Shown in pieces: positions 1 to 46,220 of a DNA stretch of 46,895 nt. This stretch comes from a virus (lineage: Duplodnaviria; Caudoviricetes). The notes under the pieces were generated by a model that saw only the letters and a list, made by a program, of their open reading frames with translations, made no database searches and was not told the origin of the DNA. The position numbers and the translations under genes are program-made. The stretch is taken from the IMG/VR virus record IMGVR_UViG_3300048599_000916, positions 1-46,895 of that record; one strand, 5' to 3'. Positions within the stretch are counted from its first letter, which is position 1. Each line of letters begins with the position of its first letter.

Positions 1-1221
1 ATGTTGAAGAAGTACACTTTTAAAGGCAGTATTTACAAAAAAGATGGCCGGTATTATTGGAAAGTAAAACTTGCCGGGGAACTCAAGCGCAGGACAATAC
101 CGCTTGCTAGAACAAATGAACCAGCAACCAAAAGTGAAGCTCTGGCTTATACCATTGCGCAAAGAATCTGGGACGAAGCAGAGCAAAAATTAAAAGGCAA
201 AAACCCTTCATTAGTCACAATCGGAGAACTCAAAAAATCATTCATAGAAGAAATGCGCGATTATTACCCGCCTAATAGTCCAATGAACAATGAAGTTAAG
301 CTGGCGATGCAATTGCTTGATGAATATGACAAAATGCCCGTGAATGAGTTTGGCCCTAAGTTGTTTAAAGATATTCGCAACAAAATGGTTAATCGTAAAG
401 ACAAAAAATTTCTATCGGTAAAGACAGTTAATGAGCGTGCGGATTTTATTAGGCGATTATTTGAATGGGGCGTAACCGGCGAAATTGTGTTAGAGAATGT
501 TTCGTATTCGCTTACACTTATAAAAAATGTTACAAGCAGAACGCCCGGGGTTGTCCCTTGTAAAACACGAGAAGCGGTTTCCATCGAAATTTTAAAAGAG
601 ACTTTGCCCTATATGAATGAAATAGTTAGAGCAATGGTTCTTGTACAATTCTACACTGGATCAAGACCGACCGAAATTATCATAATGCGTCCCTGCGATA
701 TTGACAGTTCGACAGAATATTGGACATACAAACCAGCTTGGCATAAAACAAAGTGGAGAGGTCATAACAGAAAAATCATAATCAACAAACATGCTCAAAA
801 TATAATTGCTCCGCTTCTTATTGGATGTAGGCAAGACGATTATATATTTAAGCCCATAGATGCTTGCGATAACAAAGAGGCGAAAGTTGGTGAGTTCTAC
901 GCTGAAAGCAGTTATAGAAATTCAATCAAGCGAGCGATTGAAAGAATGAATGAAGCACGCAAAAAAATTCATATCGAAAATGGCGGAGACCTTAAAGATT
1001 TTAAACCTTACGATGAATGGACTCCATATCAAATTAGACATGCAGCAGCTACAAAAATCAGAAAAGAAAAAGGTGATGATGGACTATCCTTGGTGCAATC
1101 TCTACTTGGCCAAAAAAGTATAAAAATGGCCGAAGTATATGCGAAATTAAATGATGCTCTTGCGGTTAAAGCTGCCGAAATATTAGAAGATGTTGTTCTG
1201 TCAGATTCAAATATCCTTTAA
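1..1221 (+). CDS. int: Tyrosine integrase
   Basis: Catalytic motifs GSRPTE, YQIRHAAAT, LLGQ..EVYA; N-terminal arm-binding-like beta segment (GSIYKKDGRYYWKV). Confidence 0.93.
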   Translation: MLKKYTFKGSIYKKDGRYYWKVKLAGELKRRTIPLARTNEPATKSEALAYTIAQRIWDEAEQKLKGKNPSLVTIGELKKSFIEEMRDYYPPNSPMNNEVKLAMQLLDEYDKMPVNEFGPKLFKDIRNKMVNRKDKKFLSVKTVNERADFIRRLFEWGVTGEIVLENVSYSLTLIKNVTSRTPGVVPCKTREAVSIEILKETLPYMNEIVRAMVLVQFYTGSRPTEIIIMRPCDIDSSTEYWTYKPAWHKTKWRGHNRKIIINKHAQNIIAPLLIGCRQDDYIFKPIDACDNKEAKVGEFYAESSYRNSIKRAIERMNEARKKIHIENGGDLKDFKPYDEWTPYQIRHAAATKIRKEKGDDGLSLVQSLLGQKSIKMAEVYAKLNDALAVKAAEILEDVVLSDSNIL

Positions 1222-2343: not shown

Positions 2344-2428
2344 TTATTTTACATCTAATGTACAGCAGGGAATTTGCAAATTCACCTTTTGCAACCTTGA
2401 AAAAATAACATATTTGGAGATTTATTAT

Positions 2429-11753: not shown

Positions 11754-12359
11754 ATGAGCGATAATGCAGCTAAGTCAAACAACGAAAAGAAATTAAGGTT
11801 AGAATGGGTTGAAGCAGGGACGCTTTCACCTAATCCGAAAAATTGGCGCAGACATTCAGAGACACAGCAGCGGGCAATCAAGTCTGTTTTGAATGACCCA
11901 GAAATCGGCTGGGCCGGTGTGCTGCTTTATAACGAGCGAACAAAAAGATTGATTGATGGACACGCTCGACAGCAGGCCGTAAATCCAAAAGACCTTGTGC
12001 CGGTTCTGATTGGCAATTGGTCAGATGAAGCCGAAGCTAAAATCTTATTGACGCTTGACCCGCTTGGATCAATGGCCGATGGAAGTCGAAAACAGTTTGA
12101 GCAGTTACTTGATTCCGTCAGTGTTGAAGATGCAGACATTCAAAAACTGTTGGCAGATACGGCAGGTAGTTTGACGCCTGAAGATGTTGATTCGCAGGCA
12201 GCCGCCGAAGGTTTGGAAAAGAAAGAAGTTGAACTGAAGCCCTTTAAGTGTACGCATATTCTTTTGAGTTTCCCGCCTGACTTAATCGGTGAAGTCGAAA
12301 AGCATATCGCCCCTTTGCGTGCAATTCAGGAGGTACAATATGAAACCAGTTCAAACTGA
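11754..12359 (+). CDS. ParB/Srx N-terminal-like domain protein
   Basis: LSPNPKNWRRH..LIDGHAR motif. Confidence 0.85.
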   Translation: MSDNAAKSNNEKKLRLEWVEAGTLSPNPKNWRRHSETQQRAIKSVLNDPEIGWAGVLLYNERTKRLIDGHARQQAVNPKDLVPVLIGNWSDEAEAKILLTLDPLGSMADGSRKQFEQLLDSVSVEDADIQKLLADTAGSLTPEDVDSQAAAEGLEKKEVELKPFKCTHILLSFPPDLIGEVEKHIAPLRAIQEVQYETSSN

Positions 12360-14310: not shown

Positions 14311-14385
14311 GCTACAAGATGCTAAACTTTTATAAAAAAAGCTAAAAATAGTGTTGACCTTAGAGGATATAGCAGATAACATATA
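14311..14385 (+). promoter_or_regulatory. TGCTA-box promoter of the AAA gene
   Basis: GCTA at 14311, 14321, 14341; TTGACC-N17-TAACAT. Confidence 0.7.
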
Positions 14386-14440
14386 TGCACAGATAAGGGA
14401 TTATTAAAAATTTATTTAGGAAAGCAGAAAGGTTACTCTT

Positions 14441-15559
14441 ATGGAAAACACAATGACAGCAACAGAAAACACAATGGAAGTGAACGGCGAAAGCAAATTT
14501 ATCAAAGTAAAATATAATTTCTGGAATAAATGCAGTGCTTGCGGCAGGTCTTTGACTAAAACTGATTCGGTTTGGTATCTTAAAGGCGCTGGCGTTAGAT
14601 GTGCTGAATGCGGTCAACATAAAGCCGGTGAAAAAAAATCAAATCAAAATCAATTATTCGCAATGATGGCGAATGCAATTCAGGAACATCTAAACTTAAA
14701 TCCTCAATTAGACGAAGTTGCAATTACTGAATTGATTGATAAAAGAGTTTCTGAAATATCACCGAGACCGATTGAAGTTACGATGGGCGGCAAGGTAACG
14801 GCTGTGCTTTCGGAAAGAGTTCATAAATGCTTTGACGAAATTATCAATTGCATCAATGAAGGCAACAGCAATGTGATGATTGTTGGCCCTGCTGGAAGCG
14901 GTAAAACTACAATTGGTAAACAAATTGCTAAAGCTCTCAATTTGGAATTTGGTTTTATCTCTTTGAGTGCTGGCGTAACGGAAGCCCATTTATTCGGCAG
15001 GATTTTACCGCAGGCCGATGGAAGCTGGCAATATGTAGAATCTAACTTTGTTCATGTTTACGAAAAGGGCGGAGTTTTCCTGCTTGATGAAGTTGATGCG
15101 GCAGATGCAAACGTTATGGTTGCCGTAAATGCGGCCCTTGCAAACGGTCTGTTTTCTAATCCGGTAAATGGCAAAGTTCATCATAGACACAAAGATTGCA
15201 TCATCTTGGCGGCAGCAAATACATTTGGCAGGGGCGGCGATATGATGTACGTAGGCCGTAATCAGCTTGACACTGCAACGCTTGACAGGTTCGTTTTAAA
15301 TACAGTCCAGATGGATTATGACAAGCATTTGGAACGTGCTTTAGCTCTTAGCCTTTTGCCAGAGGAAAAAGCAAACGAATTACTTGGCTGGATTGAAAAT
15401 CTTAGAGAAAAAATCACTGCTAATAAACTTCGCAGGGTTGCATCAACAAGGCTTGTAGTAAACGGGGCAAAGGCAATTGCAAATAATAAAAACCTGAAAG
15501 ATGTAAAAGCCAGATATTTTGTTGATTGGTCGATTGACGAAATCAAAAGAGTAGCTTAA
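14441..15559 (+). CDS. MoxR/CbbQ/CobS-like AAA+ ATPase with N-terminal zinc finger
   Basis: Walker A GPAGSGKT, Walker B FLLDEVD, AANTFG, LDRF; CSAC..CAEC. Confidence 0.9.
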   Translation: MENTMTATENTMEVNGESKFIKVKYNFWNKCSACGRSLTKTDSVWYLKGAGVRCAECGQHKAGEKKSNQNQLFAMMANAIQEHLNLNPQLDEVAITELIDKRVSEISPRPIEVTMGGKVTAVLSERVHKCFDEIINCINEGNSNVMIVGPAGSGKTTIGKQIAKALNLEFGFISLSAGVTEAHLFGRILPQADGSWQYVESNFVHVYEKGGVFLLDEVDAADANVMVAVNAALANGLFSNPVNGKVHHRHKDCIILAAANTFGRGGDMMYVGRNQLDTATLDRFVLNTVQMDYDKHLERALALSLLPEEKANELLGWIENLREKITANKLRRVASTRLVVNGAKAIANNKNLKDVKARYFVDWSIDEIKRVA

Positions 15560-15572
15560 TAATTAAATGAAT

Positions 15573-15606
15573 GCAGGGCGGCGAAATTAAAAAGCCGCCT
15601 TGCTTT
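15573..15606 (+). terminator. Intrinsic terminator after the AAA gene
   Basis: GCAGGGCGGC / GCCGCCTTGC plus a short TTT. Confidence 0.65.
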
Positions 15607-15626: not shown

Positions 15627-15654
15627 TTGTAAATGTTTTATAAAATGCTATAAT
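15627..15654 (+). promoter_or_regulatory. Promoter of the candidate sRNA
   Basis: TTGTAA-N16-TATAAT with extended -10 TGcTATAAT. Confidence 0.7.
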
Positions 15655-15660
15655 CAAAAG

Positions 15661-15722
15661 TTCATAAGAGTCAAGGCAGGGAACGGCGGGCGCGTAAGCT
15701 CGTAGACCTGCCTTGCACCTTT
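15661..15722 (+). ncRNA. Candidate trans-acting antisense sRNA with a split seed
   Basis: TTCATAAGAGT-[CAAGGCAGG..CCTGCCTTG]-CACCTTT; the joined arms complement AAAGGTGACTCTTATG. Confidence 0.7.
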
Positions 15723-15878
15723 AAATAAATTCCTTCTTATTCGGCCATCCATTAAGCTAAAAATCAGCAGGCAATACGATTTAACCTAATTTCAACAAGT
15801 CTCTTTATAAGCCGGATAAAGCAGCCACAAGGCAAAAGCGTAAAAGCGATAAGATTATTCTTATAAATTTTCATAAAA

Positions 15879-15945
15879 TGCTAAAAAAAACTAAAAATTG
15901 CTAAAAAATGCTATTGACAAACAAAGTAATTGCCGATAACATTTA
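15879..15945 (+). promoter_or_regulatory. TGCTA-box promoter of the vWA-like gene
   Basis: CTA at 15881, 15891, 15901, 15911; TTGACA-N17-TAACAT. Confidence 0.75.
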
Positions 15946-15988
15946 TACAGAGTTAGCGATAATACTTTTAAAATGAAAGGTAGCTCTT

Positions 15989-16852
15989 ATGGAAAATAGA
16001 AAAGCAGTACAAGGCAGCGATAGGGTTTTCAGGTATCAATTTGATTCAATTTCTGATGCGGTCGAAAGCGCTTTGAGCAATTTCGGAGCAACAGAGGAAA
16101 ACGCAATACGGGTAACAAATGAAATAGATTCGAGTTTAACGGGCAGGTGCAGTTGGGCAAACTATTATAGCAAAGAATCATTTATGAACTGCCTCAAAGA
16201 AAGCCCGAAAAGATTAGTTGATGCGGTTGAAGAAATGAAAAACGAAATTCTTTCCGATGTAGCTGATTTTGTTGGGTACCAGCCGCGCCGGAAAGTCAAA
16301 AGGGGGCAAGAATTTGGTGATGAGATTTGCAGCGACAGATTTTTAAGCAGGATTCCTAACGTATGGGAGCGAAGCGTTAAAGTAATGATGCCCAAGAAAA
16401 CAGTTAGAATCGGTGCAAATCTTTCAGTAAATTGTAATGTTGGAGCAGAACAATTAATTTACAGAGGCGCGGCGGCTTTAGCTCTTGCAGATATTTTAAA
16501 TTCAAAAGGTTTCAATGTAGAAATAGCATCATATTTTACAATACGGCATTTGACAAATAAAGCTGAATGGTTTACCAGCAAAATCGTTTTGAAAAATAGC
16601 TCGATGCCTTTGAATGTCGGCAGTCTTGCTTTTGTAATGTGCGATATTGCTTTCCCTCGAATCGTCATGGCTCTTGGAAGCGCAAGATTGCTTGATGGTA
16701 CCATTGATGGTGGTTTCGGATATGCAGCAGGATTAACTACAGCAGATAGAAATGAATGCGATTACATAATTGATGCAAATGTACTCTCTAAAGAAGCTGC
16801 AATTAATTGGATTAAAACGTCAGTGAACAAAAAAGAAAGTGAGGCAGCCTAA
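15989..16852 (+). CDS. vWA-like (CobT-like) partner of the AAA ATPase
   Basis: GDEICSDRFL; VRIGANLSVNC (degenerate MIDAS); RGAAALALADIL..GFNVEI; adjacent to a MoxR-type AAA. Confidence 0.7.
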   Translation: MENRKAVQGSDRVFRYQFDSISDAVESALSNFGATEENAIRVTNEIDSSLTGRCSWANYYSKESFMNCLKESPKRLVDAVEEMKNEILSDVADFVGYQPRRKVKRGQEFGDEICSDRFLSRIPNVWERSVKVMMPKKTVRIGANLSVNCNVGAEQLIYRGAAALALADILNSKGFNVEIASYFTIRHLTNKAEWFTSKIVLKNSSMPLNVGSLAFVMCDIAFPRIVMALGSARLLDGTIDGGFGYAAGLTTADRNECDYIIDANVLSKEAAINWIKTSVNKKESEAA

Positions 16853-39338: not shown

Positions 39339-39505
39339 AAGTAAAAATTCCTTCTTATACCGGCCAATTTTAAGAACTACCGCCTTCGTCCATACGAATC
39401 ATCATAAAAAGCAAAAACCTCTTATATCGCATCCTACGCCGTTTATGGCTTTACGGACATAATCGGGAGTTTACATGCTATAAATTTTAAGAATTTTAAT
39501 AAAAA

Positions 39506-39560
39506 TGCTAAAAAAAGCTAAAAATTGCTTGACTTTTATACAAGAATAGACGATAATCTA
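39506..39560 (+). promoter_or_regulatory. TGCTA-box promoter of the right accessory operon
   Basis: GCTA 39507, GCTA 39517, GCTTGACT 39527; N17-GATAAT. Confidence 0.7.
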
Positions 39561-39608
39561 TATATACAGTTAAGGAATTAAAAACATTTTTTTAGAAAGG
39601 TGACTCTT

Positions 39609-39830
39609 ATGGCAACAAAAAGAACAATAAATAAAACAACAAAAAGACCAAACGCTTTGAGAATTTGCGGGGTAATCGCTTCCATAGTTAAAGAATTTGA
39701 CGGAGAAAAGGAAACAACCGCTTGCATCGAATCGAAGAAATATCGTTATACCTTCTTGAATGCACAGCAGGCCGAAAAGCTGGGCAAACAATTACTTGAA
39801 ATGTCAAAATATTTGAAAGCTCAAAAATAA
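39609..39830 (+). CDS. Small hypothetical protein
   Basis: AAAGGTGACTCTTATG initiation region. Confidence 0.7.
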   Translation: MATKRTINKTTKRPNALRICGVIASIVKEFDGEKETTACIESKKYRYTFLNAQQAEKLGKQLLEMSKYLKAQK

Positions 39831-39868
39831 CATTTACAAATAACATTTGCAACAGAAGGGATGCTCTT

Positions 39869-41542
39869 GTGAATACGTTAGATAAGATAAATTTATTAAA
39901 GGAATCAGGACAGGATTTTGAATGGTACCCTACAACTAATGAAATGATTGCAGCCGTTTTCGAAGAATGCAAAGGCGATAGCAATATATCTATGCTTGAT
40001 ATAGGTGCTGGGGATGGCAGAGTACTCGAAAGAATAGATAAGCTATATTTCGATTATTATAAAAATAAAAATCAATGGCTCGAATTTCGTAGCAGTGTCA
40101 AAAAATATGCTATTGAAAAAGCAGAATTGCATATACAAAAAATGCCTCAAGATATTAGTATTGTTGGCACCGATTTTCACCTGCAAACTTTAATTGACAA
40201 AAAGGTCGATGTTATTTTCTCTAATCCGCCGTATTTGGAGTTTGAGGAATGGGCTGTAAAAATTATCAAAGAAGCAAACGCCGAAAATATATATCTGATT
40301 TTGCCTGCGAGATGGAACAATTCAAAACTTATCCAGCAGGCCATAAAGCAACGTAAGGCAAGCAAAAAAATTATATGGACAGGTGATTTTTTAGAGTCGG
40401 ATAGGTCATCAAGGGCGAAGGTCGATATTATTCAAATCTCAATTAACCCGGGAGATAGGCGCAATTCATGGAATAATCACAGAGATGTAAGCAACCCATT
40501 CGATGCTTGGTTTGATGAATATTTTGCGGGCTTTGGTAGTTTGGATCACACAGAGGATGAAGATTTAAACTATTCAAAGAAGAAAGCAAAATTTTCCGAG
40601 ACCGTAAATAATCTTGTTGATGGGCAAAATCTTATTGAGCGTCTGCATAGCCTTTATACCGCTGAAATAAAAACACTGTTAGGCAATTATACTGCATTGT
40701 CTAATCTGGATAAAGAGTTACTAAAGGAACTCGGAGTACAAATTTCAGAAGTTAAAAAAGGATTGAAGCAGAAAATTGAAGGATTGAAAAATAAATACTG
40801 GCAGGAACTTTTCAGCCATTTATCAGAAATCACAAAGAAGCTGGCTAGCAAATCAAGAACCGAGATTTTAGAAAAATTAAATGCAAGCTGCAATGTTGAC
40901 TTCAATCCAGATAATGCCTATGCGATAGTTATTTGGACTATTAAGAACGCAAACAAGTACATCAATAATCAGCTTGTCGATATATTCAAAGAACTTTCAG
41001 AGCCGGAGTGTGTTAAAAATTATAAATCAAATCAAAGGACTTGGGAAAAAGACCGATGGCGATATAAACAAGAAAAAAATCATACTCATTACATGCTGGA
41101 TTATCGCATTGTTTCAAATCACTGTTATAAAGCTATTCATAACGGCGATTACACTAAATGGGAAAATCCTAATAATTTACATAAAGAGGCACACGATTTT
41201 ATAAATGATATTTTCACTATTGCCAACAATCTTGGTTTTTCAAATAACGCTAATACGCATCATTACGGCGATTGGGAAGCCGGTAAAGCTGAAACTTTTT
41301 ATTGTTCAACAGATAAAATCTTGCTTGAGGTCAGAGCGTTTAAAAATGGCAATCTACATTTCAAGTTTAATCAGGATTTCATAAAAGCCCTGAACATCGA
41401 AGCAAGCCGCCTTTTGGGCTGGATTAAAACGCCGGAGCAGGCTGTTGATGAAATGGGTGTTGAATTGACATTTGCAAGAGCAAAATTCAAGTCAAACCTT
41501 CTTATTGGTACGATTGAAGGCCGTAAATTATTGGTTGGATAA
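39869..41542 (+). CDS. Amino-methyltransferase fused to a DUF4942-like domain
   Basis: EWYPT, LDIGAGDG, FSNPPY; C-terminal VRAFKNGNLHFKF. Confidence 0.8.
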   Translation: MNTLDKINLLKESGQDFEWYPTTNEMIAAVFEECKGDSNISMLDIGAGDGRVLERIDKLYFDYYKNKNQWLEFRSSVKKYAIEKAELHIQKMPQDISIVGTDFHLQTLIDKKVDVIFSNPPYLEFEEWAVKIIKEANAENIYLILPARWNNSKLIQQAIKQRKASKKIIWTGDFLESDRSSRAKVDIIQISINPGDRRNSWNNHRDVSNPFDAWFDEYFAGFGSLDHTEDEDLNYSKKKAKFSETVNNLVDGQNLIERLHSLYTAEIKTLLGNYTALSNLDKELLKELGVQISEVKKGLKQKIEGLKNKYWQELFSHLSEITKKLASKSRTEILEKLNASCNVDFNPDNAYAIVIWTIKNANKYINNQLVDIFKELSEPECVKNYKSNQRTWEKDRWRYKQEKNHTHYMLDYRIVSNHCYKAIHNGDYTKWENPNNLHKEAHDFINDIFTIANNLGFSNNANTHHYGDWEAGKAETFYCSTDKILLEVRAFKNGNLHFKFNQDFIKALNIEASRLLGWIKTPEQAVDEMGVELTFARAKFKSNLLIGTIEGRKLLVG

Positions 41543-45014: not shown

Positions 45015-46220
45015 TCACCCAACACATATTTTTTCCAGCTCCTTAACAGCTCTTTCCTCATTAGCATCTGAACTTTTTAAATAATATTTTTGACAGGTAG
45101 CTATATTTGAATGTCCCATTAATTTCATAAGAGTATGCACTGGTGTCCCTGCATTAGCTAAATTAGTAGCATAAGATTTTCTCAAACAGTGAATTGTCAT
45201 TTTTTCATTAAATTTTATACCTGCATCCTTACATCTTTTCTTGAAATTTTTAAGAGCATTTGGAAGTACATCTCTAAATATCCAATCACCAGCTCTATTT
45301 TTATCAATATATTTCTCTTTCCAACAAAGCTTAAGCTCTTCAAATCTTGCTTTCGTTATAAATACGAAAGGATTGCCTGTTTCCGCCTCATCCTGTAATT
45401 TTGTAAGTATATCAATAACCTGTTTTGGCATAGGAACTGAACGTTCTTCATAATCTTTAATTTTAAATGGCGGTATTTCCTGAGTTGCTGTTCTGTTTAC
45501 AAGTGTTATTTTGTTTTTCTCAAAATCAATATTAATTCCATCCCAGAACAGATTAAGAGCTTCTGCTAATCTTAAACCGCAGAAATACATAACTGTATAA
45601 AGTGCTTTTGTTCTTAAATCTTCAGTTTTATCTATTATTGCTTTAAATTCTTCAGGACTGAAATAGTGCCAATTCTGTTTTCTTATTTTTCCTGATTTTA
45701 TTCCTTTAAAAGGATTCCTTCTCAAATAGTCCCATTCCATGGCAACATTAAATATTTTTTTGCAATGACGGAGATGTTTATCTCTGGCAGAATCTGATAG
45801 CTGTTTACCTTGCTCTATATAAAATTGTTTAGAAAAATTTACATTTGCTATGAATTCCTCAGCATCTTCCTGCTTTATTTTTTTAATTGAAACAGTAGGG
45901 CAGAAATATTTCAGCAGTTCATTGATTGTATGTTCATATCCTTTGAGAGTCAGGCTTGATAAGGAATTTTTACGAGTAGAAATGAACTTATCTGTTAATT
46001 GTTTTAACGATATATCAATATTATCTCTTGGAAGACCTGCATTGAATTCTTCTTTGAGTTTCTCAATGAAGTTCTCTGCATCTTTTCGCTTAGTAAAACT
46101 CTTAGAATAACGTTTTGATTTGCCGATTTTGGGGTCAAATTCGCCTTCCCATCTGACCAGATAAGGTTTGGTTCTTATAGGTCTTTCATCCTTCTGTAGA
46201 TATATTTTATGAGTGCTCAT
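45015..46220 (-). CDS. int: Tyrosine integrase of the second element
   Basis: GLRLAE, HCLRKSYAT, LMGHS..YY. Confidence 0.93.
   Translation of the reverse strand: MSTHKIYLQKDERPIRTKPYLVRWEGEFDPKIGKSKRYSKSFTKRKDAENFIEKLKEEFNAGLPRDNIDISLKQLTDKFISTRKNSLSSLTLKGYEHTINELLKYFCPTVSIKKIKQEDAEEFIANVNFSKQFYIEQGKQLSDSARDKHLRHCKKIFNVAMEWDYLRRNPFKGIKSGKIRKQNWHYFSPEEFKAIIDKTEDLRTKALYTVMYFCGLRLAEALNLFWDGINIDFEKNKITLVNRTATQEIPPFKIKDYEERSVPMPKQVIDILTKLQDEAETGNPFVFITKARFEELKLCWKEKYIDKNRAGDWIFRDVLPNALKNFKKRCKDAGIKFNEKMTIHCLRKSYATNLANAGTPVHTLMKLMGHSNIATCQKYYLKSSDANEERAVKELEKICVG

What the first reader, a model, noticed from the sequence alone, without database searches (positions are those of the whole stretch)
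15627..15722. Split-seed antisense sRNA predicted to cover the SD and start codon of four dispersed phage genes
Seen: a promoter (TTGTAA-N16-TATAAT, extended -10) sits after the AAA terminator and points at TTCATAAGAGT-[9-bp stem CAAGGCAGG/CCTGCCTTG with an inner hairpin]-CACCTTT. With the hairpin removed, CATAAGAGT|CACCTTT is the exact 16-nt reverse complement of AAAGGTGACTCTTATG at 39596-39611. Near-identical initiation regions precede the AAA gene (AAAGGTTACTCTTATG, 14428-14443), the vWA gene (AAAGGTAGCTCTTATG, 15976-15991) and the MTase gene (AAGGGATGCTCTTGTG, 39856-39871). Differences among them are G-U wobbles or fall at the arm junction. I saw this motif at no other start codon. Known: P1 C4 and P4 CI RNAs use two separated single-stranded segments to pair with targets. 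Inference: the RNA forms a three-way junction on each mRNA and silences a regulon of genes up to 24 kb apart. The hairpin could recruit a protein. I do not recognise the family.
Basis: partly seen in the sequence, partly recalled or inferred. Interest (0 to 1): 0.92.

Follow-up and report, generated by a model that had tools for sequence, protein, structure and literature searches.

The report
Split-arm antisense RNA in a prophage
A prophage, likely of a Planctomycete bacterium, has a promoter-like site followed by a 63-base hairpin whose two flanking arms are complementary to the shared ribosome-binding and start region of four of its own accessory genes, so it likely encodes a small RNA that blocks their translation, although no transcript and no related copy turned up.

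Summary
The arms either side of a perfect 9-bp stem are together the exact complement of 39596-39611. The four named start regions rank 1-4 of 58 in cofolding, and a three-target match this good arose in 4 of 333,578 random arm pairs. The promoter resembles the phage's main early promoter, and the fold favours the + strand.

Corrections: (1) The targets are not four independent genes. Three sit behind copies of one promoter cassette and the fourth is probably co-transcribed with the third. (2) In the free RNA the arms are predicted to pair with each other, leaving a 6-nt 5' toehold. (3) The 5' arm carries nearly all the net binding energy; the 3' arm resembles the host 16S tail. (4) The stem is an ordinary host terminator-type stem.

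No homologue was found, so covariation could not be tested. The closest related prophage lacks both the element and the shared motif. No sequencing run was listed. It is not a C4 or P4 CI family member.

Best reading (0.55): a ~63-nt trans-acting repressor that enters by its toehold at the start codon and closes a three-way junction over the SD. Main rival: a terminator-like hairpin inside an inverted start-site relic.

The parts
15573..15606 (+). Hairpin after the AAA gene, probable terminator (10-bp stem, 11-nt loop, only three T)
   Evidence: Sequence; folds at z -4.9; not called by the terminator scan
15627..15654 (+). Promoter-like site for the candidate RNA (16-nt spacer, extended -10)
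   Evidence: 10/12. One of two sites in the window matching a pattern drawn after seeing it; the other is the early promoter at 1902
15660..15722 (+). Candidate small RNA, about 63 nt; both ends inferred
   Evidence: -29 kcal/mol, z -4.1, 0 of 200 shuffles as stable; the - strand folds at -22.5, z -2.6
15660..15671 (+). 5' arm: 6-nt open toehold plus seed, complementary to spacer, start codon and first codon of the targets (10-12 bp)
15672..15715 (+). 9-bp outer stem (15672-80/15707-15), 5x3 internal loop, 6-bp inner stem with two G-U pairs, 6-nt loop
   Evidence: the same 8-bp stem forms terminator-like hairpins in 6 of 26 genomes of the related host family
15716..15722 (+). 3' arm: anti-SD segment; latches the 5' arm in the free RNA, pairs with the SD in the complex
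   Evidence: resembles the 16S 3' tail read in 10 of 10 host-family loci
14428..14443 (+). Target 1: SD and start of the AAA_5 (MoxR/CobS-like) ATPase gene, 14441-15559
15976..15991 (+).
39596..39611 (+). Target 3 (perfect 16/16): SD and start of an orphan 73-aa ORF, 39609-39830
   Evidence: no homologue; weak structural lead to PC4/YdbC-like folds, below the tool's bar
39856..39871 (+). Target 4: SD and GTG start of the DUF4942 methyltransferase-like gene, 39869-41542; no promoter of its own was called
14354..14382 (+). Cassette promoter of the AAA gene
15727..15991 (+). About 260-bp promoter/RBS cassette before the DUF7192 gene (promoter 15914-15942)
   Evidence: Aligns with 39344-39611 and, at its 3' end, with the AAA upstream region
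39344..39611 (+). Second copy of the cassette, before the 73-aa ORF (promoter 39529-39557)

Best explanation
The segment likely encodes a ~63-nt trans-acting antisense RNA that would block translation of four accessory prophage genes sharing one start-site motif. Shown: the promoter-like site, the hairpin, the complementarity of both arms to the four starts, and that these starts lie in three cassette-type transcription units. Inferred: RNA polymerase starts near 15660 and the RNA ends, by termination or trimming, just after the 3' arm. In the free RNA the 3' arm latches part of the 5' arm, leaving six open 5' bases. These nucleate on the start codon and first codon, zip through the spacer, and free the 3' arm, which then covers the SD. 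The product is a three-way junction across the 30S landing site. The pairing could plausibly form without Hfq. Purpose (weakest step): the targets have strong consensus promoters, so they would be made in a burst on entry into a naive cell and shut off as the stable RNA builds up.
For: Targets rank 1-4 of 58 starts: -14.2, -10.5, -10.2, -8.7 kcal/mol against a median of -2.95. Null: 4 of 333,578 draws for three targets. Under a strict flush-stem rule it is the best hit (16 pairs; 7 others at 13-14) in 208 loci, 2.54 Mb. The three-way junction is the predicted complex for 3 of 4 targets, and 4 of 4 with coaxial stacking; the 3' arm adds 0-4.0 or 1.7-5.8 kcal/mol inside the complex. Of the methyltransferase site's five differences, three are G-U pairs and two sit at the junction, leaving 12 continuous pairs. 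The RBS block is invariant in 16 of 18 columns across three cassettes, against 74 of 283 upstream and 14 of 47 between -10 and SD. The fold favours the + strand. The promoter type matches the early promoter at 1902 and its counterpart in the closest relative. That relative has AAA and DUF7192 genes with duplicated promoters but neither the hairpin nor a shared RBS: absent together, one case only. Hfq was not found in 5 of 5 incomplete host-family genomes.
Against: No homologue found, so no covariation: covariance-model searches of 100, 33 and 87 loci and of 151 genomes, and pattern scans. Removing the 3' arm changes net binding from -14.2/-10.2/-10.5/-8.7 to -13.4/-10.4/-13.1/-9.5, so the split design is not needed energetically. 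There is no proper U-tract after the stem. If the RNA runs on to 15745, a second anti-SD raises the median to -6.5 and the DUF7192 start falls to rank 7; at 15732 the start at 11754 overtakes the methyltransferase. With a looser stem rule, single-target matches of 16 or more pairs occur 16 times in 21 phage records (two are this element) and 9 times in the backwards control. The shared motif can be explained by cassette duplication. AAA starts in relatives often carry an SD mini-hairpin of their own (35 of 70, against 164 of 605 other starts).
Confidence: 0.55

Rival explanations
1. It is a terminator-type hairpin that came to lie inside an inverted relic of the cassette's SD/start sequence. 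It insulates the DUF7192 cassette from upstream transcription and has no antisense role.
For: The stem is a common host terminator stem: 8 hairpins in 6 of 26 genomes, 0 in the control. It resembles the AAA terminator 70 bp upstream. It sits at the cassette's 5' boundary, where the second cassette and the closest relative also have a hairpin. On the - strand the arms read SD, hairpin, spacer, ATG and a 3-codon ORF. The phage evidently duplicates this cassette.
Against: A neutral relic should decay, yet the match is 16/16 flush to the stem. The insert shows no target-site duplication. No - strand cassette promoter was called upstream of the relic. A + strand promoter of the phage's own type starts just before the 5' arm, and G-U pairs favour the + strand. 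The tail is a poor U-tract.
Confidence: 0.2
2. It is a cis-acting leader: transcription from 15627 reads through into the DUF7192 gene and the 5' arm folds onto that gene's start 310 nt downstream. This silences the long mRNA, while the internal promoter at 15914 gives an unrepressed one. The other matches follow from cassette paralogy.
For: No clear terminator between 15722 and 15914. Folding 15660-16010 pairs the 5' arm with the DUF7192 start motif at probability 0.9-1.0, and the 3' arm at under 0.2. P1 C4 and P4 CI are cut from longer transcripts (PMC5320573, PMC4825925, passages).
Against: The best match is the distant 73-aa gene (16/16), not DUF7192 (14/16). The methyltransferase start, outside any full cassette, keeps 12 pairs. 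Compatible with the best explanation if the leader is processed.
Confidence: 0.13
3. The shared start motif is a protein-binding site (a DNA operator half-site or an mRNA mini-hairpin), and the inverted half-site just downstream of the 15627 promoter is another operator for that protein.
For: The motif is a quasi-palindrome able to form a 4-5 bp mini-hairpin. In four related loci (L202, L261, L266, L268) the AAA SD region is an inverted copy of a conserved upstream motif that also occurs where the SD does not match it. Start-associated sequences of unknown ligand are known (PMC3203893, passages).
Against: It does not explain why the second half lies exactly on the far side of a 44-nt hairpin, nor why variation is confined to G-U wobbles and the junction.
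Confidence: 0.07
4. Coincidence between an AT-rich hairpin flank and a T-rich spacer that is common in this host group.
For: T-rich spacers before ATG are frequent in the closest relative. Loose single-target split matches are common.
Against: About 3e-4 after correcting for the number of stems. With the 3' arm given free, 3 of 5,993 draws reached the top score and 0 the fourth.
Confidence: 0.05

Closest known systems
C4 antisense RNA of phages P1/P7 (Rfam RF01695)
   Same: Small phage RNA with two separated segments that pair around a ribosome-binding site and block translation (PMC5320573 passages; PMC12197685 section 7).
   Different: C4 is a ~77-nt three-stem RNA cut by RNase P, pairs through loops a' and b', and controls the antirepressor operon. 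Here there is one hairpin, the segments are 5' and 3' tails flush to the stem and read a continuous 16-nt target, and the targets are accessory genes in three units. No RF01695 match.
CI RNA of satellite phage P4
   Same: Processed prophage RNA pairing with two complementary sequences (PMC4825925, passage).
   Different: CI acts on seqA and seqC flanking itself and causes premature transcription termination; here the targets are SD/start sites up to 24 kb away.
Trans-acting sRNAs with a 5' seed and a 3' terminator hairpin (e.g. RybB; recalled, no call)
   Same: 5'-terminal 10-12 nt seed over the start codon, several targets, one strong hairpin. Energetically this is what the RNA mostly is.
   Different: A second arm 3' of the hairpin continues the duplex over the SD and latches the seed when free. 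No U-tract. Hfq was not found in the related hosts searched.
Synthetic three-way-junction (3WJ) repressors (bioRxiv 10.1101/501783, passages)
   Same: Toehold entry, branch migration, and a three-way junction that denies ribosome access; shown there to work in E. coli.
   Different: In the synthetic design the retained hairpin belongs to the mRNA and hides the RBS; here it belongs to the regulator, whose arms pair directly with SD and start codon.
Start-associated sequences of cluster K mycobacteriophages (PMC3203893, passages); establishment regulons of p576, pLS20 and pKM101 (PMC6294495 passages; PMC8708921 abstract and outline)
   Same: One repeated start-site or upstream sequence marks scattered accessory genes as a regulon. 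SAS genomes also carry a rare inverted copy.
   Different: The SAS ligand is unknown and p576 uses a protein repressor of transcription. Here the candidate ligand is an RNA encoded between two of the targets.

Membership tests
C4 antisense RNA (RF01695) | Match to the Rfam covariance model | tested here: not met
   No match at E<=10; none
C4 antisense RNA (RF01695) | Three stem-loops P1-P3, about 77 nt, with a' and b' in loops | tested here: not met
   Predicted single hairpin with pairing segments as terminal arms
C4 antisense RNA (RF01695) | Two separated segments complementary to a ribosome-binding region | tested here: met
   (computed pairing only)
C4 antisense RNA (RF01695) | Target is the antirepressor (icd-ant) operon | tested here: not met
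   Targets are AAA_5, DUF7192, an orphan ORF and a DUF4942 gene
C4 antisense RNA (RF01695) | 5' maturation by RNase P | not testable with these tools
   No reads listed
P4 CI RNA | Complementary seqA upstream and seqC downstream in the same leader; acts by termination | tested here: inconclusive
   A downstream cis partner exists if read-through occurs; no upstream partner within the predicted transcript; termination effect untested
5'-seed trans-acting sRNA | Own promoter and exposed 5' seed complementary to several start regions | tested here: met
   only 6 of the 12 seed bases are predicted open
5'-seed trans-acting sRNA | Intrinsic terminator with a U-tract | tested here: not met
   Not called; the tail after the stem has only short T runs
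5'-seed trans-acting sRNA | Discrete expressed transcript that represses its targets | not testable with these tools
   No run listed
Conserved structured RNA family | Homologues with compensatory changes in stem and in arm-target pairs | tested here: inconclusive
   No homologue found; the single-sequence model is insensitive (it missed the known weak hit in G303)

The most novel reading that the evidence does not exclude
A natural trans-acting three-way-junction repressor: a self-latched hairpin RNA that opens by a 5' toehold and clamps SD and start codon with arms on either side of its own stem, switching off a multi-operon set of prophage entry genes (AAA-DUF7192 pair, orphan protein, DNA methyltransferase) without Hfq. 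It would be an RNA version of zygotic induction, and a natural mirror image of synthetic 3WJ repressors.
Probability: 0.3. Interest if true: 0.8.

Novelty: new variant of a known kind. Interest (0 to 1): 0.52.

Why it matters
If real, it adds a simple pairing geometry to phage riboregulation that loop-based and contiguous-seed target predictors would miss. It offers an RNA as the ligand for a repeated start-associated motif, an open question for such motifs in other phages (PMC3203893). It would also be a candidate regulatory RNA from a likely Planctomycete phage. It is directly testable in E. coli with reporter fusions. The score is held down because it is a single sequence with no transcript and no covariation, and phage antisense repressors of ribosome-binding sites are a known kind.

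Tried and rejected
Rfam: nothing credible. Sequencing runs: none was listed; this is no evidence either way. Single-protein searches of viral contigs for the AAA and DUF7192 genes found no relative; alignment searches gave 219 loci. The split-seed scan covered 207 of these plus the window before timing out at L328. Pattern scan 25 had a 3' base that the window itself lacks, so it would miss an exact copy; 120 of about 180 matches were returned and none had a convincing stem. The weak model hit in L131/L310 (E=3; same 8-bp stem and 6-nt loop) looked like a homologue. I rejected it as evidence: the stem is a common host terminator stem, the arms are not there, and its adjacent anti-SD stretch has no matching start in the 26 kb held. 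The target motif occurs in 3 of 401 order genomes (4 sites, one before a long ORF) and in 21 viral loci with no tblastx similarity to the window and no split element. The methyltransferase was not found with this query in 301 genomes. The 73-aa ORF has no homologue. An anti-SD loop upstream of yqaJ (about 2365-2400) is not kept in the closest relative. Homology of the window's cassettes to the leaders of L202/L261/L266/L268 is not supported by alignment. A kink-turn or loop-E reading of the internal loop did not fit by eye (consensus recalled). Four mis-entered start coordinates were dropped. Literature: two full-text searches for a natural RNA with this geometry listed none; the library lacks most subscription papers. 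No supplements were read.

Full report
Context. The window is a provirus record with integrases at both ends, YqaJ/RusA recombination genes and a lambda-like head module. Its closest relative found is a 46-kb contig of a genome titled Planctomycetes bacterium GWF2_42_9 (L201, G001:C210), whose shared head and recombination proteins are mostly 60-83% identical. The host is therefore inferred to be a Planctomycete; genomes titled Sedimentisphaerales fall in the same order sample. The 16S 3' end in 10 of 10 loci from that family ends ...CACCUCCUUUCU, which fits the + strand excess of GAAAGG in the window (23 against 3). AAAGG is thus the ordinary SD here.

Observation. Everything quoted is present. 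The joined arms match 39596 exactly, 14428 with one and 15976 with two mismatches; no other start comes within three. Cofolding 15660-15722 with 58 start regions ranks the four named starts first (-14.2, -10.5, -10.2, -8.7 kcal/mol; fifth is 11754 at -7.7; median -2.95). Random arm pairs reach the best single score in 248 and the third-best score in 4 of 333,578 draws, about 0.02 and 3e-4 after allowing for some 24 strong stems (my arithmetic). A single 16-pair split match is not rare under loose rules: 16 real and 9 control hits in 21 phage records. What is unusual is the flush perfect stem, the promoter and the several real starts together.

Anatomy. A probable terminator ends the AAA gene at 15573-15606. 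A promoter-like site follows at 15627-15654; it shares spacer length and extended -10 with the early promoter at 1902 and with two sites in the closest relative, though I drew that pattern after seeing the sites. The hairpin folds far better than shuffles, and better on the + strand because of G-U pairs. In the free RNA the two arms are predicted to pair with each other (cost to open 2.8 kcal/mol), leaving the first six bases open. In the complex the 3' arm adds 0-4 kcal/mol, or 1.7-5.8 with coaxial stacking, and the three-way junction is the minimum-energy form for 3 or 4 of the 4 targets. Because the 3' arm also latches the seed, deleting it leaves net binding about the same. The 3' end is uncertain: there is no good U-tract, and a longer RNA would carry a second, generic anti-SD and lose specificity. 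The stem itself is ordinary: the same 8 bp form terminator-like hairpins in 6 of 26 host-family genomes.

Targets. The AAA_5, DUF7192 and 73-aa genes each follow a copy of one promoter cassette. The DUF4942 methyltransferase-like gene follows the 73-aa gene by 38 bases with no promoter called. So there are three units, not four independent genes. The SD-to-start block is still far better kept (16 of 18 columns) than the rest of the cassette (74 of 283) or the 5' UTR (14 of 47), which points to selection on the spacer. Part of that could be an older cis feature: AAA starts in relatives carry an SD mini-hairpin in 35 of 70 cases against 164 of 605 other starts (the 70 are related to each other).

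Relatives. No homologue of the element was found in the covariance-model searches of 220 loci, overlapping in part, in 151 genomes, or by patterns in viral contigs and 361 genomes. The model rests on one sequence and is insensitive. A sequence-independent scan found no comparable flush, multi-target element in 207 AAA loci or among the top hits printed for 20 related records. The closest relative keeps AAA and DUF7192 behind duplicated promoters but has different start regions and no hairpin between them. Element and motif are absent together there, which fits a matched pair but is one case. The weak L131/L310 hit was rejected (see Tried and rejected).

Mechanism. Best supported (0.55): a trans-acting repressor with toehold entry at the start codon, displacement of the latch and closure over the SD. 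Shown are sequence, complementarity and computed folds. Transcription, ends, repression and purpose are inferred. The purpose I favour is transient expression on entry followed by shut-off, by analogy with plasmid establishment regulons (PMC6294495, passages); the targets' functions are unknown and a search for DUF4942 listed five papers whose titles and abstract openings offer no function. Rivals: terminator in an inverted relic (0.2), cis leader of the DUF7192 gene (0.13; the cis pairing is predicted at 0.9-1.0 if read-through occurs), protein-binding motif (0.07), chance (0.05).

Comparison. It works like C4 in using two separated segments over a ribosome-binding site, but fails the family tests: no RF01695 match, no three-stem fold, different targets (PMC5320573 passages; PMC12197685 passages and section 7). 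P4 CI acts by termination on flanking sites (PMC4825925, passage). Synthetic 3WJ repressors show that such junctions can repress, with the hairpin on the mRNA side (10.1101/501783, passages). SAS motifs are the nearest case for the target side (PMC3203893, passages). PMC2864571 (passages) only lists the C4 motifs; PMC8708921 was seen as abstract and outline. Two searches listed no natural RNA of this geometry. Earlier AI notes of this scan describe several other phage RNAs complementary to shared start motifs; they are unchecked leads, and suggest the general theme is not rare.

Verdict. A real, non-random feature and a credible but unproven small-RNA repressor; a new variant of phage antisense control. 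Interest 0.52.

Noticed in passing
L122, L208, L210, L216, L219, L277, L287, L298 and others, 15-60 bases before the AAA start: Many Planctomycete relatives carry a conserved GC-rich hairpin directly before the AAA gene's SD, followed by an SD mini-hairpin; no Rfam match in the 17 loci scanned. A candidate cis-regulatory RNA; absent from the window.
   Followed up: partly
L276:2603-2671; similar sequence by eye in L220, L226, L285 upstream of the AAA gene: Hammerhead type II-like ribozyme in the AAA leader (25 bits, below the gathering score of 37).
   Followed up: no
L202:3295-3315, L261:3946-3966, L266:9887-9907, L268:2235-2251: A contiguous inverted copy of the AAA SD region lies 110-135 bases upstream of the start; the motif also occurs in L215, L285 and L293 where the SD does not match it. 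No compensatory change seen.
   Followed up: partly
window 1230, 1240, 1918, 15643, 15876, 15906, 20146, 39503: The 8-mer AAATGCTA occurs 8 times on the + strand, all within about 40 bases of promoter-like boxes, and once on the - strand; a possible operator. The copy at 15643 overlaps the candidate RNA's -10.
   Followed up: no
window 2365-2400: Hairpin before yqaJ whose loop shows an anti-SD; the hairpin is partly kept in G001 but the loop is not.
   Followed up: partly
L310:8072-8135 (= L131:4898-4961): Strong non-terminator hairpin before yqaJ with the same outer stem and loop as the element, preceded by a contiguous anti-start/anti-SD stretch with no matching start in the 26 kb held.
   Followed up: yes
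window 39609-39830: Orphan 73-aa ORF with a weak predicted-structure resemblance to PC4/YdbC-like proteins, below the tool's bar.
   Followed up: partly
L133, L136, L162, L222, L225: Other AAA-bearing phages also repeat one SD/start motif before several genes, without a split antisense copy under the strict rule.
   Followed up: partly
window 1-1221 (+) and 45015-46220 (-): Two tyrosine integrases at opposite ends; the right-hand 3 kb may be a second integrated element.
   Followed up: no
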